From: Escherichia coli
Lineage (GTDB): Bacteria; Pseudomonadota; Gammaproteobacteria; Enterobacterales; Enterobacteriaceae
DNA length: 64,000 nt
Direction: 5' to 3' (one strand)
Assembly (NCBI RefSeq): GCF_050320075.1
Contig: NZ_CP190018.1
The position numbers and the translations under genes were made by a program. The notes beneath the pieces are model-generated. The model worked only from the letters and a program-made list of their open reading frames with translations, was not told the origin of the DNA and did no database searches. The stretch's first letter is position 1. Every line of letters starts with the position of its first letter. This document shows, piece after piece, positions 4,783-63,823 of the stretch.

Positions 4783-5630
4783 AAGTACTCAACGAGCTAA
4801 GGCAGTTTTATCCTCTTGATGAGCTTCTCAGGGCTGCGGAGATACCGCGCAGTACGTTTTATTACCATCTAAAGGCTCTCAGCAAGCCTGACAAGTATGC
4901 GGACGTTAAAAAGCGTATTGGTGAGATTTATCACGAGAATAGAGGCCGATACGGATACCGTAGGGTAACGCTGTCTCTTCATCGAGAAGGGAAACAGATT
5001 AACCATAAAGCTGTTCAGCGCCTGATGGGAACCCTCTCACTTAAAGCAGCGATTAAGGTCAAGCGATACCGCTCTTACAGAGGAGAGGTAGGGCAAACCG
5101 CCCCTAATGTTCTCCAAAGAGATTTCAAGGCTACGCGGCCAAACGAGAAGTGGGTTACCGATGTTACTGAATTTGTAGTCAATGGGCGCAAGCTGTATTT
5201 GTCTCCAGTAATAGATCTCTTCAACAACGAAGTTATTTCTTACAGCCTTTCGGAAAGACCAGTGATGAACATGGTTGAGAATATGCTCGATCAGGCATTC
5301 AAAAAGCTTAATCCTCACGAGCATCCTGTTCTGCACTCTGACCAGGGATGGCAGTATCGTATGAGAAGATATCAAAATATCCTTAAAGAACATGGTATTA
5401 AACAAAGCATGTCCAGAAAAGGCAATTGTCTGGATAATGCTGTGGTGGAGTGTTTCTTTGGAACCTTAAAGTCGGAGTGTTTTTATCTTGATGAGTTCAG
5501 TAATATAAGCGAACTGAAGGATGCTGTTACGGAATATATTGAATACTACAACAGCAGAAGAATTAGCCTGAAATTAAAAGGTCTGACTCCAATTGAATAT
5601 CGGAATCAGACCTATATGCCTCGTGTTTAA
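4743..5630 (+). CDS. insK: IS150 OrfB (InsK) integrase-core reading frame, made as an OrfAB fusion by -1 frameshift
   Basis: The -1 frame is open from the slippery site to 5630 and reads ...[32 protein letters not shown]...DVTEF...HSDQGWQY...LKSE (DDE motif). The track lists only the ATG-initiated part, 5025..5630. Confidence 0.85.
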
Positions 5631-5656
5631 CTGTCCAACTTTTTGGGGTCAGTACA

Positions 5657-5849
5657 CCTGTGAGGCATTAACACCAAAGGCTTTACCCGCCTCGACCACA
5701 CCTTCGCCCATGCGATTAAACCACGGCATACCATCGACTTTAGAGATATTCACCACGACTTTTTCCGCTGCCTGGAGCGGCGCAGAAATTAGCGCAGCGC
5801 CTAATAACAGCGAAGACACCATATTGATAACAAAACGTTTATTCATCAT
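5657..5849 (-). pseudogene. Periplasmic sugar-binding protein (LsrB/RbsB family), N-terminal fragment with signal peptide
   Basis: MMNKRFVINMVSSLLLGAALISAPLQAAEKVVVNISKVDGMPWFNRMGEGVVEAGKAFGVNASQVY: signal peptide followed by an LsrB-like N-terminal motif. It ends at the IS150 right end. Confidence 0.8.
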
Positions 5850-12211: not shown

Positions 12212-13064
12212 AATTCCCTCCGTAGGTTTGGCTCAGCGCACAACCATCGGCCATGCCATACAGCATGTCGCAGCCGGAACTGGAGCCAATATGTTTAATT
12301 TTTTCTATTGCCTGAGTTGCGTTCCCAGGGATGTCATAAATAATGTTATGAATAAAACGATGAATATCTTCCCGGCAGCGTTGTTGTAATGCGGCTTCCA
12401 GCGTTATGGCACTTAATAACGTGGTATTATTTCTGCCGCGTTGCAGACCGAGATAAAATTCCTCTTTGTATTTTTCCGCCGGATGCCCAGGAATAAATAA
12501 AATAAGCGCCAGACCTGTTAAATAATCGTCGGCTGATGGCGTAAGGCCAATCCCTAAGCCCATCATACTGGCGACCGCTGAGGCGATATTTTGTTTATCG
12601 TTTACGGCCTGAATAACTGCCCGTCGTTTAATATGTAATTCTTTATTTAACGCCTGATAAAACGGATTATCGCCGCAATAATTAAACAGGGTTTCATTTT
12701 CCCCCAGGTGCTGATGAATAATGTCATGCCACTGTTGCCAGGCGATAAGGTGAAAATTCACAGCGGTCATTTGCAAGGTTGGGGACAGCCAACGCCGACA
12801 ACGACTCATCTCTATATGAAGATGTTGACCAACCGTAATGCCTTGATCGTCAAACTGAACCTTATCACCATGCCGGAACAGACCATCAAAGTGAGTGAGT
12901 GCCAACCGACAACTGTTTGGCGCATTGTCGTACTCTTCACAAAGCAGCGTCAGCAACTGCTGGCGGGCCGGAAGTGCGATATTTACCGCTCTGGCAAAGA
13001 CCTGTTCAACCTGTCCTTGCCCCCGCTGCGCCAGAAAATCAGCATCCGCAGTTAGCGCCCACAC
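12201..13064 (-). CDS. yahE: DUF2877-family protein (YlbF-like), 287 aa
   Basis: ORF overlaps the yahF start by 11 nt. Length and context match yahE. Confidence 0.65.
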   Translation of the reverse strand: MWALTADADFLAQRGQGQVEQVFARAVNIALPARQQLLTLLCEEYDNAPNSCRLALTHFDGLFRHGDKVQFDDQGITVGQHLHIEMSRCRRWLSPTLQMTAVNFHLIAWQQWHDIIHQHLGENETLFNYCGDNPFYQALNKELHIKRRAVIQAVNDKQNIASAVASMMGLGIGLTPSADDYLTGLALILFIPGHPAEKYKEEFYLGLQRGRNNTTLLSAITLEAALQQRCREDIHRFIHNIIYDIPGNATQAIEKIKHIGSSSGCDMLYGMADGCALSQTYGGNYVS

Positions 13065-13103
13065 ACACCGTCTTTCTGGTGTGTTGATAGCAAGCCTCCC
13101 GGT

Positions 13104-13709
13104 TTATGCACCTGCGGCCATCAGTAACTGCGCAATCTCTTCAAAGCCTCGTTCCCGCGCCAGTTCCAGCGGCGTTTTGCCATATTTATCCGTCATGTGC
13201 GGGCTGGCACCGTGTTCCAGCAATAACTGGACAATCGCCTGCTGTTTAATCCCGCCATCATTAAGCACAATTGCTTCCAGTAGCGGCGTCCAGCCAACAT
13301 GGTTGGTCTGGTTAACGTTAATCTCCGTATGCGCCAAAAGCTCTTTTACAATACTTAAATGGCCTTTTTCACAGGCAGGCGTCAGGCCGACACCGCCAAA
13401 ACGGGTGACGCAATTAAGATCGGGTTTAGCCGGTAAAATAATCCGTAACAGGGTTAAATCGCCGGTCAGGCAGCTAATTAAAAAAGGATTTGAACATATT
13501 TGATCTTGCTTATTAATATCTGCTCCGGCATCAATTAATGCCTGAACGCAAGCATATTGCTGATATAAACTTGCCAGCGTAATTGCCGTTTTCCCCTGAC
13601 GATCGCAGGTATTAATATCGACACCCAGCGCAAGGCAGGTTTTTACTTTATCGATATCACCCTGTTGCGCAGCCAATAAATAGTCGGCAGGTAGATTTTT
13701 TATAGTCAT
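13104..13709 (-). CDS. yahD: Ankyrin-repeat protein, 201 aa
   Basis: Repeated ankyrin-like units (G.TALH/LA...G....V..LL..GAD.N) are visible in the translation. Length matches YahD. Confidence 0.75.
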   Translation of the reverse strand: MTIKNLPADYLLAAQQGDIDKVKTCLALGVDINTCDRQGKTAITLASLYQQYACVQALIDAGADINKQDQICSNPFLISCLTGDLTLLRIILPAKPDLNCVTRFGGVGLTPACEKGHLSIVKELLAHTEINVNQTNHVGWTPLLEAIVLNDGGIKQQAIVQLLLEHGASPHMTDKYGKTPLELARERGFEEIAQLLMAAGA

Positions 13710-13966
13710 TCACATTCCCCTGGTTTTTGTGGCTGTTTTCGATGAATTGAGAATAGCAACGATAATCTGATAAAAGAACCCGCTTAAATTTAATTCGCCG
13801 TATTTCGCCTTTTTGTTGAATGATGTTCAACAATCTTTTCGCAGTGTGCGGTAGTGCAATATTTGTTTCTTTGACCCGATACCCTTTCACTCAATCAGGT
13901 TTTATTTCTCTATAGTCTGCACATGTAAGAGTAGCTTTCGTCCATGTCTAACCAGAGGGGAACAAG

Positions 13967-14464
13967 ATGAACGGACTCACGGCAACGGGTGTCACCGTCG
14001 GTATTTGTGCAGGGCTTTGGCAGTTAGTGTCTTCACATGTTGGGCTCTCTCAGGGATGGGAATTATTAGGAACCATTGGCTTCGTCGCCTTTTGCAGTTT
14101 TTATGCCGCAGGCGGCGGTAAAACGGGGTTTATCAGAAGCCTGGCGGTTAATTATTCCGGGATGGTGTGGGCGTTTTTCGCCGCGCTGGCTGCCGGTTGG
14201 CTGGCCTCGGTGAGTGGATTGTCCACGTTCTGGGCGAGCGTGATTATGACTGTACCCTTCTCGGCGGTAGTGGTCTGGCAAGGACGTTTCGGTTTATTGT
14301 CTTTTATTCCCGGAGGCTTTCTCGGCATGACGCTATTTTTTGCCAGCGGGATGAACTGGACGGTGACATTACTGGGTTTTCTGGCGGGTAACTGCGTGGG
14401 GATAATTTCAGAATATGGCGGACAAAAATTAAGCGAAGCGACGACTAAACGCGACGGGTATTAA
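13967..14464 (+). CDS. yahC: Inner-membrane protein, 165 aa
   Basis: Highly hydrophobic ORF with several predicted helices, transcribed divergently from yahD. Length matches YahC. Confidence 0.65.
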   Translation: MNGLTATGVTVGICAGLWQLVSSHVGLSQGWELLGTIGFVAFCSFYAAGGGKTGFIRSLAVNYSGMVWAFFAALAAGWLASVSGLSTFWASVIMTVPFSAVVVWQGRFGLLSFIPGGFLGMTLFFASGMNWTVTLLGFLAGNCVGIISEYGGQKLSEATTKRDGY

Positions 14465-14555
14465 AAGTTATTCAAAAATGATTATCTATCTTTAACCGAT
14501 ACCTCTACAGTCATGGCTGGAGAAATTCATAGTAGATAATGGCGGGAATGGTTTA

Positions 14556-15488
14556 ATGAACTCAATTTTTACCGAAGAGAATCTGTTGGCATTTACTACC
14601 GCTGCGCGTTTTGGCAGCTTCAGTAAAGCCGCAGAAGAGTTGGGTTTAACCACTTCCGCCATTAGCTACACCATCAAGCGAATGGAAACAGGGCTGGATG
14701 TGGTGCTGTTCACTCGCAGTACCCGAAGCATTGAGTTAACGGAGTCCGGGCGTTATTTTTTCCGCAAAGCTACCGACCTGCTGAATGATTTTCACGCCAT
14801 CAAACGCAGCATCGATACTATTTCGCAGGGTATAGAAGCACGGGTGCGCATTTGTATTAACCAACTGCTTTATACGCCCAAACACACCGCACGCTTATTA
14901 CAGGTACTGAAAAAGCAGTTTCCTACCTGCCAGATTACCGTCACCACCGAAGTGTATAACGGCGTCTGGGATGCGATTATTAATAATCAGGCGAATATCG
15001 CTATCGGCGCACCCGACACGCTGCTGGACGGTGGCGGCATTGATTACACGGAGATTGGCGCGATTCGCTGGGCTTTTGCCATCGCCCCGGATCACCCGTT
15101 AGCCTTTGTGCCGGAGCCGATCGCCGAAAGCCAACTGCGTCTCTACCCTAATATCATGGTGGAGGACACCGCACATACGATTAATAAAAAAGTGGGCTGG
15201 TTGCTGCATGGGCAGGAGTCAATTCTGGTGCCAGATTTCAACACCAAATGTCAGTGCCAGATTTTAGGTGAAGGAATTGGTTTTTTGCCGGATTACATGG
15301 TCCGTGAGGCGATGGCGCAATCCCTGCTGGTTACCCGACAAATCCATAATCCGCGCCAGGATTCGCGCATGTTACTGGCGACCCAGCACTCTGCCACCGG
15401 TCAGGTGACGCAGTGGATTAAAAAACAATTTTCGCCAAATGGCATATTAACGGGGATCTATCAGGATTTACTGCATCGGGAGAATTAA
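14556..15488 (+). CDS. yahB: LysR-family transcriptional regulator, 310 aa
   Basis: N-terminal LysR HTH (FTTAARFGSFSKAAEELGLTTSAISYTIKRME) plus a substrate-binding domain. Confidence 0.8.
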   Translation: MNSIFTEENLLAFTTAARFGSFSKAAEELGLTTSAISYTIKRMETGLDVVLFTRSTRSIELTESGRYFFRKATDLLNDFHAIKRSIDTISQGIEARVRICINQLLYTPKHTARLLQVLKKQFPTCQITVTTEVYNGVWDAIINNQANIAIGAPDTLLDGGGIDYTEIGAIRWAFAIAPDHPLAFVPEPIAESQLRLYPNIMVEDTAHTINKKVGWLLHGQESILVPDFNTKCQCQILGEGIGFLPDYMVREAMAQSLLVTRQIHNPRQDSRMLLATQHSATGQVTQWIKKQFSPNGILTGIYQDLLHREN

Positions 15489-15529
15489 TCGCTGCCAACT
15501 TCCCGATGCGCTGTGAATAGCGGTTTACA

Positions 15530-16618
15530 TCAACCACCTGCTTTCATTACCCATTCAGAGATAAATTTATTACCCGGTACTGGCGGAGAGTACAAATAGC
15601 CCTGCAAAAAGTGAACGCCTTTGCCGATCATTAAATCCGCCTGCTCCTGGGTTTCTACCCCTTCCGCCACGATACTCAGACCAGGCTTACGCGCCAGTTC
15701 GACAATATTGTCCACAATATGACCGGATATTTCGTCCACGCTCGCCATTTGCACAAATGACTTATCGATCTTAATAAAATCGACCGGGAACGCCTGCAAG
15801 TAACGATAGGTCGCATAACCCGTACCAAAGTCATCCAGCGCAAAGGTAATGTTGTGCTGATGAAGGCTGTCAAATATCGCTCTGGCTTCTGGCGTTACCG
15901 GAATAGGGTTACGTTCCGTTAGCTCGAGAACCAGTTTGATTTTATCGTTACCTAATTTCTTAACCAGGTTCAGGCATTCTTTTTCAAATCCCGCAGCCAA
16001 AAAACAACCCGCCGAGACGTTGATGCCAATATGGAAATTGTCCGGCAGCAAATGTTTTACCGGCATCAGAATATCCGCAGTCTGTTTCATCAACTGGCGA
16101 GTCATTATGACGATAAGACCAGATGACTCCGCCAGAGGAATAAACTGATCCGGTGGGATAATTCCCGTTTGTGGATGTTCCCAGCGGACAAGCACCTCAC
16201 AGCCCGTCAGTACCCCAGTCTGCGCGCAGAAAACCGGTTGGATCCACGGTTTAAATTCATGGTTTTCCAACGCCAGACTGATGGCTTCAGGCGTGACGAT
16301 ATGGTGATAGTGATTATCATTAATATATTTGTGACTATTATTACCCGTGGCGGATATGATCTCCGGATTGTACTGAAAGAAAATATCCCGCCAGAAAGTA
16401 ATATCGCTCTGAATCCCCAGTTTCTCAAAGAGCTGTTTCTTTTGATGTGAAATGGTCTTTGCACTGCGATTTCTGTACTGTGATATTTCTGTTACAGACA
16501 TTCCCTGCATCAGCAGCTTGAGTAGCAGTCGTTCTTTCTCGGATACGCTACCAGGCAATGACAAATGAACCGTTGTACCGAACTCTTGCAGAAAAACACG
16601 AAAATCACATGAATTCAT
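15530..16618 (-). CDS. pdeL: c-di-GMP phosphodiesterase with N-terminal LuxR-type HTH and C-terminal EAL domain, 362 aa
   Basis: LuxR-type HTH (LLKLLMQGMSVTEISQYRNRSAKTISHQKKQLFEKLG) followed by EAL-domain motifs (ELTER, DDFGTGY). Length matches YahA/PdeL. Confidence 0.85.
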   Translation of the reverse strand: MNSCDFRVFLQEFGTTVHLSLPGSVSEKERLLLKLLMQGMSVTEISQYRNRSAKTISHQKKQLFEKLGIQSDITFWRDIFFQYNPEIISATGNNSHKYINDNHYHHIVTPEAISLALENHEFKPWIQPVFCAQTGVLTGCEVLVRWEHPQTGIIPPDQFIPLAESSGLIVIMTRQLMKQTADILMPVKHLLPDNFHIGINVSAGCFLAAGFEKECLNLVKKLGNDKIKLVLELTERNPIPVTPEARAIFDSLHQHNITFALDDFGTGYATYRYLQAFPVDFIKIDKSFVQMASVDEISGHIVDNIVELARKPGLSIVAEGVETQEQADLMIGKGVHFLQGYLYSPPVPGNKFISEWVMKAGG

Positions 16619-55771: not shown

Positions 55772-56461
55772 ATGAGCAACCAAGGCGAATACCCCGAAGA
55801 TAATCGGGTTGGGAAGCACGAGCCGCACGATTTTAGTTTGACCCGTCGCGATCTGATTAAAGTCAGCGCCGCAACGGCGGCGACCGCCGTGGTTTATCCT
55901 CATTCTACGCTTGCGGCAAGCGTTCCGGCAGCTACACCCGCGCCAGAGATAATGCCCCTGACACTTAAGGTGAACGGCAAAACCGAGCAGTTGGACGTTG
56001 ATACCCGAACCACGCTACTGGACGCTTTGCGTGAAAATCTGCATCTGATCGGTACCAAGAAAGGTTGCGATCACGGACAGTGCGGAGCCTGTACCGTGCT
56101 GGTCAATGGTCGAAGGCTTAATGCCTGCCTGACGCTTGCAGTCATGCATCAGGGGGCCGAGATCACCACCATTGAAGGCCTGGGTTCACCAGAGAATCTT
56201 CACCCCATGCAGGCGGCCTTTATCAAGCATGATGGCTTCCAGTGCGGCTACTGCACCTCCGGGCAAATTTGCTCATCAGTAGCGGTGCTAAAAGAGATTC
56301 AGGACGGCATTCCCAGTCACGTCACGGTCGATTTGGTTTCCCCTCCAGAAAGAACGGCCGATGAGATCCGTGAACGTATGAGCGGCAACATCTGTCGCTG
56401 TGGTGCATACGCTAACATCCTTGCCGCCATTGAAGACGCTGCGGGGGAGATAAAATCATGA
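55772..56461 (+). CDS. paoA: Periplasmic aldehyde oxidoreductase 2Fe-2S subunit with Tat signal peptide, 229 aa
   Basis: Twin-arginine motif [19 protein letters not shown]. Two [2Fe-2S] clusters ([11 protein letters not shown]..., [17 protein letters not shown]). Confidence 0.9.
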
Positions 56462-59205
56462 AGGCGTTTACCTATGAACGTGTGAACACCCCGGCCGAGG
56501 CGGCACTTAGCGCTCAGCGCGTACCTGGCGCAAAATTTATCGCTGGCGGGACCAATCTGCTGGACCTGATGAAGCTGGAAATTGAAACGCCAACCCACCT
56601 TATCGATGTGAACGGGCTCGGGCTCGATAAGATTGAAGTGACCGACGCGGGTGGGCTGCGCATCGGCGCACTGGTACGGAACACCGACCTGGCGGCTCAC
56701 GAGCGCGTGCGTCGTGATTACGCGGTACTCTCCCGCGCCCTGCTCGCTGGCGCGTCTGGTCAGTTACGCAATCAGGCAACCACCGCAGGTAATCTGCTCC
56801 AGCGCACGCGCTGCCCCTATTTTTACGACACCAATCAGCCCTGCAATAAGCGCCTGCCCGGGAGCGGCTGCGCGGCACTTGAAGGCTTTAGCCGTCAGCA
56901 CGCGGTGGTAGGCGTAAGCGAAGCCTGCATTGCCACCCATCCGAGCGATATGGCGGTCGCAATGCGGTTGCTGGATGCGGTGGTGGAAACCATCACGCCG
57001 GAGGGAAAGACTCGCAGTATCACACTGGCTGATTTTTATCACCCTCCGGGAAAAACGCCGCACATTGAAACCGCCCTGCTTCCCGGTGAGCTTATCGTTG
57101 CGGTGACGTTACCTCCGCCGCTCGGCGGAAAACATATCTACCGCAAGGTGCGCGATCGCGCCTCCTACGCCTTTGCCCTGGTATCGGTCGCGGCGATTAT
57201 TCAGCCTGACGGCAGCGGGCGCGTCGCGCTGGGCGTACTGGCTGTCATTACCGCCAGTAACGCCGGGGCACTCGGCAAAGGCGACAAAAACACCGCCAGG
57301 CTGTTAGGCGGCCCCACTATTGAACACTATCATCAGGCCATTGCGCTGGTAGTGGCCGAGACCTTCGAACAGGCGCGAGCGGCGGCCTCGCTGGTGCAGG
57401 CGCACTATCGCCGTAATAAAGGAGCTTACTCCCTGGCGGACGAGAAACAGGCCGTCAGTCAGCCGCCGGAAGACACGCCCGATAAAAATGTTGGTGACTT
57501 TGACGGGGCTTTCACCTCCGCTGCGGTGAAGATTGATGCTACCTACACGACCCCGGACCAGAGCCATATGGCGATGGAGCCGCATGCCTCGATGGCCGTC
57601 TGGGATGGAAATAAGCTTACCCTCTGGACCTCAAATCAGATGATTGACTGGTGCCGCACCGATCTGGCAAAAACGCTGAAAGTGCCCGTGGAGAATGTGC
57701 GTATTATCTCCCCGTATATCGGCGGAGGGTTTGGCGGCAAGCTGTTCCTGAGAAGCGATGCGCTGCTGGCGGCCCTCGCCGCCCGTGCGGTGAAACGTCC
57801 GGTTAAAGTGATGCTCCCCCGCCCCACTATTCCCAATAACACCACGCACCGCCCCGCCACCCTTCAGCACTTGCGTATCGGTACTGACCAGAGCGGGAAA
57901 ATCACCGCTATCTCACATGAAAGCTGGTCCGGAAACCTGCCCGGCGGCACGCCGGAAACGGCGGTACAGCAAAGCGAATTTCTTTACGCAGGGGCGAATC
58001 GTCATACCGGCCTGCGGCTCGCCATGCTTGATTTGCCGGAAGGGAACGCCATGCGTGCGCCCGGCGAAGCCCCCGGTCTGATGGCGCTCGAAATCGCGAT
58101 CGATGAACTGGCGGAAAAAGCGGGCATCGATCCCGTCGAGTTTCGCATCCTGAATGACACTCAGGTTGACCCCGCCGATCCGACGCGCCGCTTCTCTCGC
58201 CGTCAGCTTATCGAGTGCTTGCGCACCGGAGCGGATAAATTTGGCTGGAAGCAGCGCAACGCCACACCCGGACAGGTACGCGACGGGGAGTGGCTAGTCG
58301 GCCACGGTGTTGCGGCGGGCTTTCGCAATAATCTGCTGGAAAAATCGGGTGCGTGGGTTCACCTGGAGCAAAACGGCACCGTTACCGTGGAAACGGACAT
58401 GACCGATATTGGCACTGGCAGCTACACCATTCTGGCCCAGACGGCAGCGGAAATGCTTGGCGTACCGCTGGAGCAGGTTGCGGTTCACCTCGGCGATTCC
58501 AGTTTCCCGGTTTCTGCGGGGTCTGGTGGACAATGGGGCGCGAATACCTCCACCTCCGGCGTTTACGCCGCCTGTGTGAAGCTTCGCGAAATGATTGCCT
58601 CGGCAGTCGGGTTTGATCCTGAGCAGTCGCAGTTTGCCGACGGCAAGATTACCAACGGTACCCGAAGCGCCACGCTACATGAGGCCACCGCAGGCGGCAG
58701 ACTGACAGCGGAAGAGAGCATTGAATTCGGAATACTGAGCAAGGAGTACCAGCAATCGACCTTTGCCGGGCATTTTGTGGAGGTCGGCGTGCATAGCGCG
58801 ACGGGAGAAGTTCGGGTCCGGCGTATGCTCGCCGTGTGCGCAGCGGGGCGCATTCTGAATCCGAAAACTGCACGCAGCCAGGTCATTGGCGCGATGACTA
58901 TGGGCATGGGCGCGGCACTGATGGAGGAGCTGGCGGTAGATGACCGTTTGGGCTACTTCGTTAATCACGATATGGCGGGGTATGAAGTGCCGGTTCATGC
59001 GGATATCCCAAAACAGGAGGTGATTTTCCTGGATGATACCGACCCCATCTCCTCCCCGATGAAGGCCAAAGGTGTCGGTGAGCTGGGCCTGTGCGGCGTG
59101 AGCGCGGCTATCGCCAACGCGGTGTATAACGCCACCGGTATTCGGGTACGGGATTATCCCATCACTCTGGATAAGCTGCTCGATAAGCTGCCGGATGTGG
59201 TTTAA
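56458..59205 (+). CDS. paoC: Apparent in-frame fusion of paoB (FAD subunit, truncated C-terminus) to paoC (molybdopterin subunit, truncated N-terminus), 915 aa
   Basis: The ORF starts with a CO-dehydrogenase-type FAD-binding domain ([13 protein letters not shown]...), overlapping the paoA stop. Around residue 250 (...[26 protein letters not shown]...) it passes directly into a molybdopterin-subunit sequence that runs to the end (...[14 protein letters not shown]). Junction is near 57228-57235. Confidence 0.7.
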
Positions 59206-59214
59206 GGAGGAACA

Positions 59215-60168
59215 ATGTCATACTCGCTTTTTGACAAAGACGAGCACTGGCATAAGCCAGAGCAGGCGTTTCTCACCGATGACCACCGGGCCATTCTGCG
59301 CTTCGCCGTAGAGGCGCTAATGTCCAGTAAAGGAGCGGTGCTGGTGACGCTGGTGGAAATACGCGGCGGCGCGGCGCGCCCGCTCGGGGCGCAGATGGTG
59401 GTGCGCGAAGATGGTCATTACTGCGGTTTTGTCTCTGGCGGCTGCGTGGAGGCCGCTGCCGCTTTTGAAGCGCTGGAGATGATGGGCTCAGGCCGCGATC
59501 GCGAAATTCGCTATGGTGAAGGTTCGCCGTGGTTTGACATCGTTCTGCCCTGCGGCGGTGGGATCACGCTGACGCTCCATAAACTACGCTCGGCACAACC
59601 TCTGCTCGCCGTGCTGAACCGCCTGGAACAGAGAAAACCGGCGGGTCTGCGCTACGATCCGCAAGCACAATCGTTGGTGTGCCTGCCCACGCAAACCCGG
59701 ACGGGCTGGAATCTCAATGGCTTTGAGGTGGGGTTCAGACCATGCGTCAGGCTGATGATTTACGGACGTTCTCTTGAGGCGCAGGCAACCGCGAGTCTTG
59801 CAGCAGCCACAGGCTATGACAGCCATATCTTCGATCTTTTTCCGGCCTCAGCCAGCGCTCAGATCGATACCGATACGGCGGTCATTTTGCTGTGCCATGA
59901 TCTCAACCGGGAACTGCCAGTGTTGCAGGCCGCGCGAGAAGCAAAACCCTTTTATCTCGGCGCATTGGGCAGCTATCGAACCCACACTTTACGTCTGCAA
60001 AAGCTCCACGAGCTGGGATGGTCCAGGGAGGAGACAGAGCAAATCCGGGCACCTGTCGGGATATTCCCCAAAGCCCGGGATGCGCATACTCTGGCCCTTT
60101 CCGTACTGGCAGAAGTCGCCGCTGTACGTCTCCGTCAGGAGGATTCATGCCTGCCCCCATCGTCCTGA
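59215..60168 (+). CDS. paoD: XdhC-like molybdenum-cofactor insertion chaperone, 317 aa
   Basis: XdhC/CoxI-family architecture. Follows paoC after 9 nt with a GGAGG ribosome-binding site. Confidence 0.8.
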   Translation: MSYSLFDKDEHWHKPEQAFLTDDHRAILRFAVEALMSSKGAVLVTLVEIRGGAARPLGAQMVVREDGHYCGFVSGGCVEAAAAFEALEMMGSGRDREIRYGEGSPWFDIVLPCGGGITLTLHKLRSAQPLLAVLNRLEQRKPAGLRYDPQAQSLVCLPTQTRTGWNLNGFEVGFRPCVRLMIYGRSLEAQATASLAAATGYDSHIFDLFPASASAQIDTDTAVILLCHDLNRELPVLQAAREAKPFYLGALGSYRTHTLRLQKLHELGWSREETEQIRAPVGIFPKARDAHTLALSVLAEVAAVRLRQEDSCLPPSS

Positions 60169-60254
60169 TCCTCGCGGCGGGGCGTGGGGAGCGCTTCCTC
60201 ACCTCCGGGGGAAATACCCATAAATTAAGAGAAAAATCTGCAGTAGCCGTTTAA
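60150..60254 (+). pseudogene. 35-codon remnant resembling the N-terminus of a MobA/MocA-type molybdenum-cofactor nucleotidyltransferase
   Basis: MPAPIVLILAAGRGERFLTSGGNTHKL carries the LAAGxGxRF nucleotide-binding motif of that family, then stops after 35 codons. Overlaps the paoD 3' end. Confidence 0.4.
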
Positions 60255-60346
60255 GAAAATCACCTAAATCGTTTAAAAGAGCGCCCAACCCATAGTGGGC
60301 GCTTATCGCCTTGTGAAACTTATTCAGCAACGCGCGCCTCGCCGGA

Positions 60347-61540
60347 CTAAAGCGCACCGGCCTTCTGGCGTGCGGTAACAAAGGTCAGTACGCCAGCGCA
60401 AAGGAGCAGCACGCTACTCATAGCAAACGTGCTCTGCCAGCCAAGGCGGTCAAACACAATGCCTCCTGCCGTTGATCCAAGGGCGATGGCGAGCTGAATC
60501 ACCGCGACCATGAGCCCGCCTCCAGCTTCGGCGTTGTCAGGCAACGTACGCGCAATCCATGTCCACCATCCGGTTGGCGCGGCGGTGGCCAGCATGCCCC
60601 AGAGTCCTAACAGCAGCGAGACCGTCCAGACGTGATGCCCGGTAAGCATCAGACCGATGGCAATGACGGCCATCAGTCCGGGTATGGCCATCAGCGTGGG
60701 GTAGAATTTTCTGTTGAGAAATGCCGAAACAACCAGCGTGCCAATAAAACCGGCCACGCCGATAATCAGCAAAATCGACGACAAGCCTAAGGAATTAACC
60801 CGTGTCACCGACTCCAGAAACGGGCGCACATAGGTGAATAGCGCAAACTGCCCCATGAAAAACAGGCCACAAGCTATCATGCCGACCACAACCATGCGGC
60901 GGCTAAATAAGCGGAATACCGCGCCACATGAAGTGTGGCTTTTATTCGCATCCATGCTTGGCAGGCTGATGCACTGCCAGATAAAGGCGACAACCGCGAT
61001 GGGCACCAGGCACAAGAAAGCGCCTCGCCATCCGACCGTAGCCCCCAGATAGCTTCCCAGCGGTGCGGCCACGACCGTCGCCAGCGCATTACCGGCGTTG
61101 AAAATTGCCAGCGCACGCGTGACCTGATGCTGCGGCACCAGACGAATCGCCGTTGCCGCTGACATCGACCAGAATCCGCCAATAGCCACACCAATCATCG
61201 CACGACCGACCATATACATCAGATAACTGGAAGCCAGCGCAATAATAAGCCCCGATACGGCCATCAGAACCGTCATCCCCAGCTGCAGGAACTTACGATT
61301 CATCTTTCCAGCTAGCGTTGAAAGCGTCAGGCTGGTCAGAACCGCCAGCGCGCCGGAGATAGCAATCCCCTGCCCTGCCAGCCCCTCCGTCACGCCTAAA
61401 TCGCGGGTAATCGGCGTGAGCAGGCTGACGGGCATAAATTCAGAAGCAATCAGCACAAACACGCACAGGGTCATGGCAAAAATACCGCCCCAGTATGCGC
61501 GCTGATGATGAGGTGATAGTGTTTGGCTTAGTGTCGACAT
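60347..61540 (-). CDS. MFS-family transporter (12 predicted helices), 397 aa
   Basis: Hydrophobic throughout, with MFS-like repeats. The stem-loop AGCGCCCA...TGGGCGCT at 60281-60304 just beyond the stop may terminate it. Confidence 0.75.
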   Translation of the reverse strand: MSTLSQTLSPHHQRAYWGGIFAMTLCVFVLIASEFMPVSLLTPITRDLGVTEGLAGQGIAISGALAVLTSLTLSTLAGKMNRKFLQLGMTVLMAVSGLIIALASSYLMYMVGRAMIGVAIGGFWSMSAATAIRLVPQHQVTRALAIFNAGNALATVVAAPLGSYLGATVGWRGAFLCLVPIAVVAFIWQCISLPSMDANKSHTSCGAVFRLFSRRMVVVGMIACGLFFMGQFALFTYVRPFLESVTRVNSLGLSSILLIIGVAGFIGTLVVSAFLNRKFYPTLMAIPGLMAVIAIGLMLTGHHVWTVSLLLGLWGMLATAAPTGWWTWIARTLPDNAEAGGGLMVAVIQLAIALGSTAGGIVFDRLGWQSTFAMSSVLLLCAGVLTFVTARQKAGAL

Positions 61541-61615
61541 AGTGAAATTTCACAAAGATCAGGATAAAAGCCACCAGCCTATGGCCGGTGGCTTTGCATC
61601 AATTCAGGAGAGGTT

Positions 61616-62752
61616 TTATTTCAGTTTGGTCTGGAAAAATTGTTCGAACTTCGCGAAAGGTATTTTTCCGGCCACGTTATCGTACAGGTCCACGTGATTT
61701 GCCCCTGGTACCACCACCAACTCTTTGTCTTTACTGCCAACCGCCTTGTAAGCATCTTCAGCAAAATAGCGTGAATGTGCTTTCTCACCGGTCACAATCA
61801 GCGTCGGAATGGTGATTTCACTGGCGTAGCTCAACAGCGGCATATTCATAAATGACAGCGGCATCGTTGCCGTCCACGCCCCGGTAGAGTTAACGGAACG
61901 TTCGTGGAAGCCGCGCGGCATGCGATAGTAGTCAAAGAACTCTTTCAGTACCGGATGAGGATTTGCCGGCAGCGTTTCTGGCAGAATGCGCTCGCCCGCA
62001 CTGACCTTGCCGTTGCTGTCGACATTAATATCATGACCACCGTGAGCGAACGTTCCGCTCTGCGCATCCTTCCAGCGCTGTTCATTCAGATATTGCAGAA
62101 CAGCACGACGGTCGGCGGTAGAATAACGGTCTTTGCCATCCCCCACACCATGGCCCATCGCCCGGCTCATGTCATACATCACGCTGGTAGCTACCGCTTT
62201 AACGCGGGTATCCATCGCCGCGTCGTTCAGCGCCATGCCGCCCCAGCCACAAATACCGAGCAGCCCGATACGGTTGCGATCTACCTCTTTTTGCAGCCCT
62301 AAGAAATCCACTGCCGCGCTGAAATCTTCAGTGTTGATATCCGGTGAGGCGACGTTTCGCGGATAGCCGCCGCTTTCCCCGGTGTAAGAAGGATCGAACG
62401 CCAGGGTAACAAACCCTCGTTCCGCCAGCGTCTGCGCATACAGGCCGCTGGATTGCTCTTTCACCGCGCCAAATGGCCCACTGACCGCAATCGCCGCCAG
62501 CTTGCGATCGCCACGGTCTTTAGGCAGGTAAAGATCGCCCACTAAGGTGATGCCATATCGGTTCGGGAACGAGACTTTACGGTGATCGACTTTCTGGCTC
62601 TCGGCGAACGTTTTATCCCATTTATCTGTCATGGACACAGGGGCATTAGGATTGGTTGAATCAGCATAACTCATTGTCGTGACTCCACTTAATGATGCGA
62701 AAAGCAGCATGGTCGGCATCGCGGTTTTTAGCGTGCGGGTGAAGGCTTTCAT
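61616..62752 (-). CDS. Secreted alpha/beta-fold hydrolase (dienelactone-hydrolase-like), about 378 aa
   Basis: Signal peptide MKAFTRTLKTAMPTMLLFASLSGVTTMSYA. Shares motifs with the cytoplasmic paralogue at 42414..43334 (LGICGWGG, YYRMPRG, VVVPGANHVDLYD). Confidence 0.65.
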   Translation of the reverse strand: MKAFTRTLKTAMPTMLLFASLSGVTTMSYADSTNPNAPVSMTDKWDKTFAESQKVDHRKVSFPNRYGITLVGDLYLPKDRGDRKLAAIAVSGPFGAVKEQSSGLYAQTLAERGFVTLAFDPSYTGESGGYPRNVASPDINTEDFSAAVDFLGLQKEVDRNRIGLLGICGWGGMALNDAAMDTRVKAVATSVMYDMSRAMGHGVGDGKDRYSTADRRAVLQYLNEQRWKDAQSGTFAHGGHDINVDSNGKVSAGERILPETLPANPHPVLKEFFDYYRMPRGFHERSVNSTGAWTATMPLSFMNMPLLSYASEITIPTLIVTGEKAHSRYFAEDAYKAVGSKDKELVVVPGANHVDLYDNVAGKIPFAKFEQFFQTKLK

Positions 62753-62938
62753 AAAAATCCCCATAAAAAACAACAGAGAGATACAGGTTTCCGACGGACA
62801 ACGCTGCGGTGCTTTACTTTGATGGGGTCATTATAGTGAGCAGAATTAGTGCTGATTAGGGGGCGATTAATGCTAAGATTAATACCATATTGTTATAAAT
62901 TAATGTGGAGATTGCCGGCATGAAGGGGGGATGTTTCA

Positions 62939-63823
62939 ATGGCGAAAAGGGAGAACTACAACGAGCTGTACCTGTTTATGCAGGTGGTGCGGGAAGGCAG
63001 CTTTACCGCAGCGGCTCAGCGGCTGGGTCTTGCTCAGTCAGGAGTCAGCCGTTCTGTTCGCGAGCTTGAAGAAAGGCTGGGTGTCCAGCTGCTAGTGCGC
63101 ACCACGCGTAAACTGTCGCTGACACAAGCAGGCGAGCAGCTCTACCAGAAGACGGCATCTGGATTTGAAATGTTAGATCTTGGGCTTGCCACGCTGGCGC
63201 ATTATCGAGAGACGCCCTCCGGCACGGTGCGTATCAATGCCAGCCAGCACGCGATTGATAAATGCCTGCTGCCAAAGCTGGCGGTATTTAAACAGAGATA
63301 TCCTGATATCCGGCTTGAACTGATAAATGAGAGCCGGTTCGTCGATATCATCGAGGAAAGATTCGATGCAGGTGTCCGCCTGGGGCCTGAAGTCGGCCAG
63401 GGTATGGTCGCGGTACGCATCACGCCCGATATGGAGATGGCAATTGTGGGGACTCCGGAACATTTTCGTCGCTATGGTTTTCCGCAAACCCCGGCGGATT
63501 TAAAGGCGCATCCCTGTATCGCCTATCAGTTTGCCGACGGCAGCGTATACCAGTGGGAACTCAATCAGGATGATAAAAAAATCACTCATCGCCCTGAAGG
63601 GCAATGGGCCCTATCCGACAGCTATATGGAAGCAGAAGCCGCCCGGCTGGGCCTCGGATTGGCCTATGTTCCTGTTGAACTGGTCGCGGATGATTTAGAA
63701 CACGGTAAGCTTATCAGGGTGTTGCAGCGTTACAGCCTGCGAATGGAGGGATTGTTTCTCTATTACCCTCATCGCAACGTCTCCCCCGCCCTGCGGATGG
63801 TCATTGATACATTGAAAATCTGA
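62939..63823 (+). CDS. LysR-family transcriptional regulator, 294 aa
   Basis: HTH LYLFMQVVREGSFTAAAQRLGLAQSGVSRSVRELEERLG. Divergent from the hydrolase/MFS genes. Confidence 0.8.
   Translation: MAKRENYNELYLFMQVVREGSFTAAAQRLGLAQSGVSRSVRELEERLGVQLLVRTTRKLSLTQAGEQLYQKTASGFEMLDLGLATLAHYRETPSGTVRINASQHAIDKCLLPKLAVFKQRYPDIRLELINESRFVDIIEERFDAGVRLGPEVGQGMVAVRITPDMEMAIVGTPEHFRRYGFPQTPADLKAHPCIAYQFADGSVYQWELNQDDKKITHRPEGQWALSDSYMEAEAARLGLGLAYVPVELVADDLEHGKLIRVLQRYSLRMEGLFLYYPHRNVSPALRMVIDTLKI

What the first reader, a model, noticed from the sequence alone, without database searches (positions are those of the whole stretch)
60150..60254. Remnant of a MobA/MocA-like molybdenum-cofactor nucleotidyltransferase gene after paoD
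A 35-codon ORF overlapping the paoD stop begins with the nucleotide-binding motif of MobA/MocA enzymes (PIVLILAAGRGERF) and then terminates. PaoC uses a cytidine-dinucleotide form of the molybdenum cofactor, so an adjacent cofactor-modifying gene would make sense. The truncation suggests a deletion that also removed whatever originally lay between paoD and the MFS gene.
Basis: partly seen in the sequence, partly recalled or inferred. Interest (0 to 1): 0.3.

Follow-up and report, generated by a model that had tools for sequence, protein, structure and literature searches.

The report
Dead stump of a MocA-like gene
The short reading frame after paoD is the first 27 codons of a molybdenum-cofactor nucleotidyltransferase gene that related bacteria still carry intact, cut off in E. 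coli by a roughly 7-kb deletion; it is an ordinary gene remnant.

Summary

- **The ORF.** An ATG at 60147, preceded by AGGAGG and overlapping the paoD stop by 22 nt, opens a 35-codon ORF.
- **Homology.** Codons 1-27 (60147-60227) match the N-terminus of a 183-221 aa PF12804 (MobA-like NTP transferase) gene. That gene sits in the same overlapping position after paoD in 24 of 25 related pao loci and is intact in 23. The closest intact protein matches 26 of 27 residues.
- **Family.** The best NCBIfam match of the intact proteins is MocA/YgfJ, below the equivalog cutoff.
- **Left breakpoint.** DNA identity to the nearest intact locus is 70/81 inside the remnant and 21/81 in the next 81 nt.
- **Right side.** From 60227/60228 the sequence is the last 20 nt and the downstream hairpin of an alpha/beta-hydrolase gene.
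- **What was lost.** A contig that keeps both ends shows about 7.1 kb deleted: the rest of the gene plus seven other genes.
- **Distribution.** None of 5,426 complete E. coli genomes holds the 3' part.
- **Decay.** The stump carries frameshifts, changes at motif residues and roughly four times the divergence of paoD.
- **K-12.** A second deletion fused codons 1-26 in frame to half a LysR gene, producing the annotated yagP.

Low interest. This is an unannotated remnant of a known family.

The parts
59215..60168 (+). paoD (XdhC-family molybdenum cofactor insertion chaperone), intact
   Evidence: PF02625 and PF13478; annotated as paoD in the identical strain CFSAN061763.
60137..60142 (+). AGGAGG ribosome-binding site of the lost downstream gene, 4 nt before its ATG and inside paoD
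   Evidence: Read directly from the sequence. The same 22-nt paoD/gene overlap occurs in the intact loci L032, L034 and L045.
60147..60227 (+). Codons 1-27 of a paoD-coupled MobA/MocA-family (PF12804) nucleotidyltransferase gene, covering the first strand and the LAAGRGERF glycine-rich loop. This is the true remnant.
   Evidence: tblastn E from 6e-12 to 1e-4 against 20 loci, ending at residue 27 in 18 of them. 26/27 identity to P0001 and P0002. 70/81 nt identity to L003. 94% DNA identity to L034 across 59372-60227.
60227..60228 (.). Deletion junction; one A at 60227 is shared by both sides
   Evidence: Homology to L003, L032 and L034 ends at 60224-60227. Homology to the hydrolase 3' end begins at 60227.
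60228..60246 (+). Last codons and TAG stop (…EKNLQ*) of an alpha/beta-hydrolase gene, read here in a different frame by the chimeric ORF
   Evidence: 96% identity to E. coli FDAARGOS_1373 L036 from 14977, which is the end of an annotated alpha/beta hydrolase. 84% identity to L037.
60147..60254 (+).
   Evidence: ORF length varies among E. coli (26, 35 and 49 aa).
60279..60304 (.). 9-bp GC-rich hairpin inherited with the hydrolase 3' flank. It is the probable terminator between the pao operon and the convergent MFS gene (inferred).
   Evidence: Present in the RNA fold. Conserved downstream of the hydrolase stop in L036 and L037. The simple terminator scan did not call it.
60347..61540 (-). MFS transporter gene, first gene beyond the deletion
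   Evidence: PF07690. Annotated as MFS transporter. 84.7% DNA identity to L034 12881-16148 together with the hydrolase and LysR genes that follow it.

Best explanation
The ORF is a non-functional 5' stump of a fifth pao-cluster gene. In relatives of E. coli, paoD is followed by a roughly 184-codon MobA-like NTP-transferase gene whose ATG overlaps the paoD stop by 22 nt, so the two are translationally coupled. It is most likely a cytidylyltransferase that makes the cytosine-dinucleotide cofactor used by PaoC. In the E. coli lineage one deletion of about 7.1 kb joined codon 27 of this gene to the last 20 nt of an alpha/beta-hydrolase gene lying just upstream of the convergent MFS gene. The deletion removed the other roughly 157 codons and, judging from the one contig that keeps both ends, seven further genes: a DLH-type hydrolase, a response regulator, a sensor kinase, a cupin, a CMD-family protein, a flavodoxin and the alpha/beta hydrolase. 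The stump kept its ribosome-binding site and ATG, so a short, variable peptide may still be made, but 27 residues of a roughly 160-residue domain cannot form the enzyme. E. coli tolerates the loss because the unlinked MocA (YgfJ) supplies the cofactor to PaoD. Shown here: the homology, both breakpoints, the absence of the 3' part from E. coli, and the decay. Inferred: cytidylyl specificity of the ancestral gene, the exact deleted content, a single-step deletion, and compensation by MocA.
For: Homology and synteny:
- The gene is present right after paoD in 24 of 25 loci and intact in 23; a further intact case is L045.
- Remnant residues 1-27 align with E down to 6e-12 and 26/27 identity to P0001 and P0002.
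- The alignment shows A11, G12 and K26 invariant.

Family: PF12804 with E about 1e-25. MocA_YgfJ is the best NCBIfam hit at 81-85 bits, against 19-21 bits for MobA.

Breakpoints:
- Left: 70/81 versus 21/81 nt identity and the alignment.
- Right: 96% identity to the 3' end of an annotated alpha/beta hydrolase plus its flank.

Deleted content: in L034, window 59372-60227 matches 4819-5674 (94%) and window 60359-63639 matches 12881-16148 (84.7%). The two blocks are 7,101 bp apart and gene-filled.

No 3' part exists in any of 5,426 E. coli genomes.

Decay:
- A 1-nt deletion in O157:H7 and O145:H28 and a 1-nt insertion in AF46.
- Replacements E15K, R16C, S20C and G21E.
- 8/78 differences in the stump against 26/935 in paoD between the window and K-12, Fisher p = 0.003.

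Compensation: PaoC contains the cytosine-dinucleotide cofactor (PMC2997495), and PaoD receives it from MocA (PMC3909100). MocA-type and paoD-linked paralogues coexist in Leclercia adecarboxylata, Yokenella regensburgei and Atlantibacter hermannii.
Against: - The only sequence that joins both ends (L034/L035) is a single isolate. There the segment sits beside TraI, UvrD, UmuD and integrase genes with a 5'-truncated paoD, and its MFS block is only 85% identical to the window. The deleted content in the real E. coli ancestor may therefore have differed, or been lost in more than one step.
- The intact homologue is only 22% identical to E. coli MocA and scores below the MocA equivalog cutoff, so cytidylyl rather than guanylyl specificity is not established.
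- Pfam does not recognise the 35-aa peptide on its own.
- The ribosome-binding site and ATG are retained. In K-12-type genomes the chimeric 136-aa ORF was intact in 4 of 4 sampled, so expression of some product is not excluded.
Confidence: 0.92

Rival explanations
1. Chance resemblance: a spurious short ORF in the paoD-MFS spacer that happens to contain a glycine-rich LAAGxGxRF-like motif.
For: Pfam gives no NTP_transf_3 hit for the peptide alone. The motif is short and common among nucleotidyltransferases.
Against: 26/27 identity to intact proteins found at the same position. 86% DNA identity to L003 that drops to 26% exactly at codon 27. The 22-nt overlap geometry with paoD is the same as in the intact loci.
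Confidence: 0.01
2. Insertion rather than deletion: the MFS-hydrolase-LysR block was inserted into an intact gene, so the 3' part should survive beyond the insert.
For: The region between paoD and the tRNA-Thr gene is an island-rich, variable part of E. coli genomes.
Against: No E. coli complete genome holds the 3' part of the gene. The right side of the junction is itself the truncated end of a hydrolase gene. L034 shows the MFS block already downstream of the intact gene.
Confidence: 0.03
3. The stump is kept because it is functional. It would act either as a translated small peptide, or as a coupling or termination element for paoD, or in K-12-type strains as the start of an expressed chimeric YagP (an effector-binding-domain-only LysR protein made from the pao transcript).
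For: AGGAGG and ATG are retained in all nine E. coli sequences examined. The 136-aa yagP ORF is intact in 4 of 4 K-12-type genomes. yagP is annotated as a CDS in NC_000913.3.
Against: ORF length and tail differ among window-type strains (26, 35 and 49 aa) because of indels. Conserved motif residues are replaced. Divergence is about 4 times that of paoD. The ribosome-binding site and first 22 nt lie inside paoD, so they are conserved regardless. PGAP treats the LysR part as a pseudogene.
Confidence: 0.05

Closest known systems
E. coli MocA (YgfJ), CTP:molybdopterin cytidylyltransferase
   Same: Same Pfam family (PF12804). The intact homologues of the remnant score best against NCBIfam MocA_YgfJ. 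The N-terminal AAG glycine-rich loop is shared. The functional context is the same: the cytosine-dinucleotide cofactor for PaoC, handed to PaoD (PMC3909100, PMC2997495).
   Different: Only 22% identity over 120 aa. The score is below the equivalog cutoff (81-85 against 186 bits). It is a separate paralogue that coexists with true MocA in several genera. It is encoded overlapping paoD rather than in the ygf/xdh region. In the window only 27 of about 184 codons remain.
xdhC-mocA gene pairs in other xanthine-oxidase-family clusters (B. subtilis pucA-pucB; Arthrobacter nicotinovorans pAO1 xdhC-mocA)
   Same: An XdhC-family chaperone gene is directly followed by, and co-transcribed with, a MocA-family gene (PMC2997495). 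The intact pao loci of Leclercia, Enterobacter, Cedecea, Kosakonia, Asaia and others have this layout.
   Different: In E. coli the second gene of the pair has been deleted down to a stump. The published E. coli operon is described as paoABCD with paoD as the last gene (PMC3909100).
E. coli K-12 yagP (b0282)
   Same: It uses the same ATG and ribosome-binding site, and codons 1-26 are the same remnant.
   Different: In K-12 a second deletion of about 6.1 kb, with a 4-5 nt microhomology (ATAA(G)), fused the stump in frame to the C-terminal half of a LysR gene. That gene is full length in O157:H7. The window keeps the older junction with the hydrolase 3' end.

Membership tests
MobA-like NTP transferase domain (Pfam PF12804), MocA/MobA enzymes | A complete domain of about 160 residues that scores above the Pfam gathering threshold | tested here: not met
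   The 35-aa peptide gives no PF12804 hit even at E up to 10. Only 27 of about 184 codons are present. Intact homologues score 82-92 bits against a cutoff of 27.
MobA-like NTP transferase domain (Pfam PF12804), MocA/MobA enzymes | N-terminal strand plus glycine-rich loop (hhhLAAGxGxRF/M … K) | tested here: met
   IVLILAAGRGERF…HK aligns with all intact homologues and with E. coli MocA. A11, G12 and K26 are invariant; L9, A10 and R16 are at least 90% conserved.
MobA-like NTP transferase domain (Pfam PF12804), MocA/MobA enzymes | Descent from a family member, shown by orthologous position and sequence | tested here: met
   Same overlap with paoD. 26/27 aa and 86-94% DNA identity to intact genes up to codon 27.
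MocA (cytidylyltransferase) as opposed to MobA (guanylyltransferase) | Equivalog-level match to MocA_YgfJ (TIGR03310), or demonstrated CTP specificity | tested here: inconclusive
   For intact homologues MocA_YgfJ is the best hit (81-85 bits), well above MobA (19-21 bits), but below the 186-bit cutoff. Identity to E. coli MocA is 22%. Enzyme specificity cannot be tested with these tools.
Gene remnant (pseudogene fragment left by a deletion) | Truncated relative to intact orthologues, with a sharp loss of homology at a definable junction | tested here: met
   Identity is 70/81 up to 60227 and 21/81 in the next 81 nt. The right side is the truncated end of another gene.
Gene remnant (pseudogene fragment left by a deletion) | Missing part absent from the genome or species | tested here: met
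   A distant-mode blastn of the 3' 474 nt of the L003 gene finds no match in 5,426 complete E. coli genomes.
Gene remnant (pseudogene fragment left by a deletion) | Relaxed constraint | tested here: met
   Indels change the ORF to 26 or 49 aa in O157, O145 and AF46, and conserved residues are replaced. Divergence is 10.3% against 2.8% in paoD, p = 0.003. The sample is small (nine sequences).

The most novel reading that the evidence does not exclude
The retained ribosome-binding site and ATG of the dead gene are still used. In window-type strains they would drive a short peptide coupled to the end of paoD translation. In K-12-type strains they would drive expression, from the pao transcript, of YagP, a chimeric LysR effector-binding-domain protein with a MocA-derived N-terminus that has acquired a role. 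Separately, the intact paoD-coupled paralogue in other Enterobacteriaceae would be a dedicated 'PaoE' cytidylyltransferase. That would make E. coli's reliance on YgfJ-type MocA for PaoABC a derived state.
Probability: 0.06. Interest if true: 0.45.

Novelty: new member of a known kind. Interest (0 to 1): 0.2.

Why it matters
The main gain is correct annotation and evolutionary bookkeeping in a model organism.

- **The operon.** The E. coli aldehyde oxidoreductase operon is described as paoABCD with paoD last. The comparison shows the ancestral cluster had a fifth gene, a MocA-family paralogue translationally coupled to paoD, which E. coli lost.
- **MocA dependence.** This explains why PaoABC maturation in E. 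coli depends on the unlinked MocA. It also flags the intact paralogue in Leclercia, Enterobacter, Cedecea, Kosakonia and others as a candidate dedicated cofactor-modifying enzyme.
- **yagP.** The first 26 codons, the start codon and the ribosome-binding site of the K-12 gene yagP turn out to be borrowed from this dead gene.

None of this changes the understanding of the pathway.

Tried and rejected
- **Pfam on the 35-aa peptide alone:** no NTP_transf_3 hit, only a meaningless LonC_helical hit at E = 0.25.
- **Rfam on 60000-60500:** only sub-threshold hits, Esr41 at 19.6 bits and skipping-rope at 19 bits. No RNA family explains the region.
- **Promoter and terminator scan of 59900-60600:** nothing called. 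The hairpin at 60279-60304 was seen only by folding, and the 126-nt fold as a whole is not unusual (z = -1.1).
- **Aligning the 3' flank of the MFS gene with L034 to pin the right breakpoint:** failed because the flank is too diverged. It was solved instead by a blastn of 60228-60320 against E. coli genomes, which found the hydrolase gene end.
- **'GGNTH' / 'KGNTH' similarity:** I considered whether this resemblance between the remnant and the hydrolase C-terminal region had mediated the deletion. Rejected, because the real junction lies about 55 nt further downstream, at the last 20 nt of the hydrolase.
- **Whether the K-12 arrangement is ancestral:** rejected. The window keeps four more bases of the gene (TTA of codon 27), and O157:H7 shows the full LysR gene downstream of the MFS block.
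- **Dating the deletion within the genus:** failed, because the only E. marmotae PaoD contig is 1.1 kb.
- **Primary MocA papers (Neumann 2009 and 2011):** not held. Their content is cited only through PMC3909100 and PMC2997495.
- **Literature searches for yagP, paoE and paoABCD:** found no description of the remnant.

Full report
**What is in the sequence.** The window is E. coli. Positions 59700-60700 are 100% identical to strain CFSAN061763. paoD runs 59215-60168. Inside its last codons lies AGGAGG (60137-60142), followed four bases later by an ATG (60147). This ATG opens a 35-codon ORF, MPAPIVLILAAGRGERFLTSGGNTHKLREKSAVAV, that ends at TAA 60252-60254 and overlaps the paoD stop by 22 nt. 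NCBI's annotation of the identical strain lists nothing between paoD and the convergent MFS transporter gene.

**Is it more than chance?** The peptide alone is too short for a profile search, and Pfam returns no NTP_transf_3 hit. I therefore fetched pao loci from other genomes using PaoD as the query (loci L003-L028).

- In 24 of the 25 usable loci, a gene of 183-221 codons starts at or overlapping the end of paoD. These loci cover Leclercia, Enterobacter, Silvania, Siccibacter, Pseudenterobacter, Dryocola, Cedecea, Kosakonia, Citrobacter sedlakii, Pseudocitrobacter, Pseudescherichia, a Pluralibacter MAG and four Asaia.
- The gene is intact in 23 loci, frameshifted in Asaia platycodi and absent from Erwinia sp. 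198.
- tblastn of the 35-aa peptide hits that gene in 20 loci. The alignment ends at residue 27 in 18 of them; the two weakest run on to residues 30 and 32. E ranges from 6e-12 to 1e-4.
- Intact proteins recovered from the large protein collection begin MPAPIVLILAAGRGERFLTSGGSTHKL, which is 26 of 27 identical to the window.
- At the DNA level the window matches the Pluralibacter locus at 70 of 81 positions across codons 1-27 and at 21 of 81 positions in the next 81 nt (alignment).

**What family.** The intact homologues are PF12804, the MobA-like NTP transferase domain, with E about 1e-25. In NCBIfam their best match is MocA_YgfJ at 81-85 bits, followed by a DVU_1551-type NTP transferase and PucB. 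MobA models score only 19-21 bits. All are below the equivalog cutoffs.

Direct comparison with E. coli MocA, taken from the K-12 record, gives only 22% identity over 120 residues. Genuine MocA orthologues at 55-62% identity exist in species that also carry the paoD-linked gene: Leclercia adecarboxylata, Yokenella regensburgei and Atlantibacter hermannii. The lost gene is therefore a separate, pao-linked paralogue of MocA, not its orthologue.

That it made the cytosine-dinucleotide form of the cofactor is an inference. It rests on three points:
- the family ranking above;
- the statement that PaoC carries that cofactor (PMC2997495);
- the known pairing of xdhC-like and mocA-like genes in other clusters, such as pucA-pucB and Arthrobacter pAO1 (same paper).

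In the protein alignment the remnant covers the first strand and the glycine-rich loop. A11, G12 and K26 are invariant and R16 is nearly so.

**The right side of the junction.** A blastn of 60228-60320 against the E. coli collection found the same spacer in 977 genomes. In a few genomes it also found an 84% match lying over the end of an annotated alpha/beta-hydrolase gene.

Fetching those regions showed that window 60227-60326 corresponds to the last 20 nt of that hydrolase gene (…K E K N L Q stop) plus its downstream spacer, which contains a 9-bp GC hairpin (60279-60304). Identity to E. coli FDAARGOS_1373 is 96%.

Codons 28-35 of the ORF are thus hydrolase-derived sequence read in another frame. 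The hydrolase's own TAG sits at 60244-60246. Both flanks of the junction are truncated genes, which is the signature of a deletion.

**What was deleted.** One contig, held in two assemblies of the same 'Salmonella enterica' isolate (L034/L035), keeps both ends.

- Window 59372-60227 matches L034 4819-5674 at 94%.
- Window 60359-63639 (MFS, alpha/beta hydrolase, LysR) matches L034 12881-16148 at 84.7%.
- Between them lie 7,101 bp (L034 5675-12775). This interval carries the remaining roughly 157 codons of the gene, a DLH-type hydrolase, a response regulator, a sensor kinase, a cupin, a CMD-family protein, a flavodoxin, and the alpha/beta hydrolase whose last 20 nt survive in the window.

CMD and flavodoxin genes also follow the intact gene in Enterobacter oligotrophicus. 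The block from cupin to MFS-hydrolase-LysR exists in E. coli FDAARGOS_1373, with an extra MFS/Lrp pair inserted.

There is a caveat. In L034 the segment sits beside TraI, UvrD, UmuD and integrase genes with a 5'-truncated paoD. It is therefore a single, possibly mobilised witness, and the deleted content in the actual ancestor is inferred rather than shown.

**Distribution and decay in E. coli.** A sensitive blastn of the 3' 474 nt of the nearest intact gene finds nothing in 5,426 complete E. coli genomes. About 3,600 genomes carry the paoD end with the stump.

Among nine sequences examined:
- the ORF is 35 aa in two window-type strains;
- it is 49 aa in AF46, from one extra A;
- it is 26 aa in O157:H7 and O145:H28, from a one-base deletion;
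- replacements fall on conserved motif residues (E15K, R16C, S20C, G21E).

Between the window and K-12 the stump differs at 8 of 78 positions, against 26 of 935 in paoD (Fisher p = 0.003). This is the behaviour of unconstrained sequence. The ribosome-binding site and the first 22 nt are conserved simply because they lie inside paoD.

**K-12 and yagP.** In K-12-type genomes the homology to the window stops at 60223. There codons 1-26 are joined in frame to the C-terminal half of a LysR gene. The MG1655 record annotates this 136-aa chimera as yagP (b0282), beginning at the remnant's ATG.

O157:H7 has the window-type junction and, about 6 kb further on, the full-length LysR gene. The K-12 layout is thus a second deletion of about 6.1 kb between short ATAA(G) repeats. 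Its left end lies only 4 bp from the older junction. I regard this as coincidence helped by microhomology.

**How it works.** The best-supported account is a dead remnant.
- The ancestral cluster was paoABCD plus a coupled MocA-family gene.
- A deletion removed that gene beyond codon 27 together with neighbouring genes.
- The pao transcript now runs into the terminator-like hairpin inherited from the hydrolase flank (inferred).
- A short, strain-variable peptide may be translated from the retained start, with no role.
- The cofactor for PaoC is made by the unlinked MocA and passed to PaoD, as stated in PMC3909100.

Rivals are dealt with in the structured fields: a chance motif, an insertion rather than a deletion, and a functional small ORF or functional YagP. 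The first two are refuted by the data. The third is unlikely but not excluded.

**Comparison with what is known, and novelty.** The family, the xdhC-mocA gene pairing and the role of MocA in PaoABC maturation are all known. The papers I could search describe paoD as the last gene of the operon and do not mention the stump or the origin of the yagP N-terminus. The primary MocA papers were not available.

The stump fails the test for being a member of the enzyme family as a working protein, because the domain is incomplete. It passes the tests for being derived from a family member. I file it as a new, previously unannotated remnant of a known kind, of low interest. The value lies in a clean reconstruction and a small correction to how the pao cluster and yagP are described.

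Noticed in passing
window 56458-59205 (junction about 57231-57235): paoB and paoC are fused into a single 915-aa ORF by a deletion of about 400 bp between short GGGCG repeats. NCBI marks both genes as pseudogenes in the identical strain, so the aldehyde oxidoreductase is probably inactive in this strain regardless of the stump.
   Followed up: partly
L001 3451-3861; NC_000913.3 297381-297791 (K-12 yagP): The K-12 gene yagP is a chimera. Codons 1-26 are the MocA-like stump and the rest is the C-terminal half of a LysR gene that is full length in O157:H7 (L031 8435-9334). It was created by a second deletion of about 6.1 kb. The 136-aa ORF was intact in 4 of 4 K-12-type genomes sampled.
   Followed up: yes
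proteins P0241-P0246 (E. coli, 448 aa): Some E. coli encode a 448-aa triple fusion, PaoD - stump - LysR half (…EEDSCLPPVVLILAAGRGERFLASGGNTHKCIGW…). It is presumably caused by a frameshift in the 22-nt paoD/stump overlap.
   Followed up: partly
L034 / L035 (contig of GCA_011508625.1, labelled Salmonella enterica): A 5'-truncated paoD, the intact MocA-like gene, seven further genes and the MFS-hydrolase-LysR block lie next to TraI, UvrD-like helicase, UmuD and integrase genes. This suggests the chromosomal segment was captured by, or abuts, a mobile element.
   Followed up: no
L036 15070-16827 (E. coli FDAARGOS_1373): This strain has a second MFS gene and an Lrp/AsnC regulator inserted between the alpha/beta hydrolase and the MFS gene. 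Upstream it carries the two-component, cupin, CMD and flavodoxin block without a pao operon in the 27-kb stretch examined.
   Followed up: partly
window 60279-60304: A 9-bp GC-rich hairpin (GAGCGCCCA…TGGGCGCTT) lies between the convergent pao and MFS genes. It is conserved after the hydrolase stop in other E. coli and is probably a terminator, although the simple terminator scan did not call it.
   Followed up: partly
beyond the window end; L030 4762-11454 (CFSAN061763): Between the LysR gene and the tRNA-Thr gene this strain carries a ykgR fragment, an AbiEi/AbiEii toxin-antitoxin pair, a 1,069-aa RNA-directed DNA polymerase and an integrase fragment. K-12 has the CP4-6 prophage there and O157:H7 a P4-like element.
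   Followed up: no
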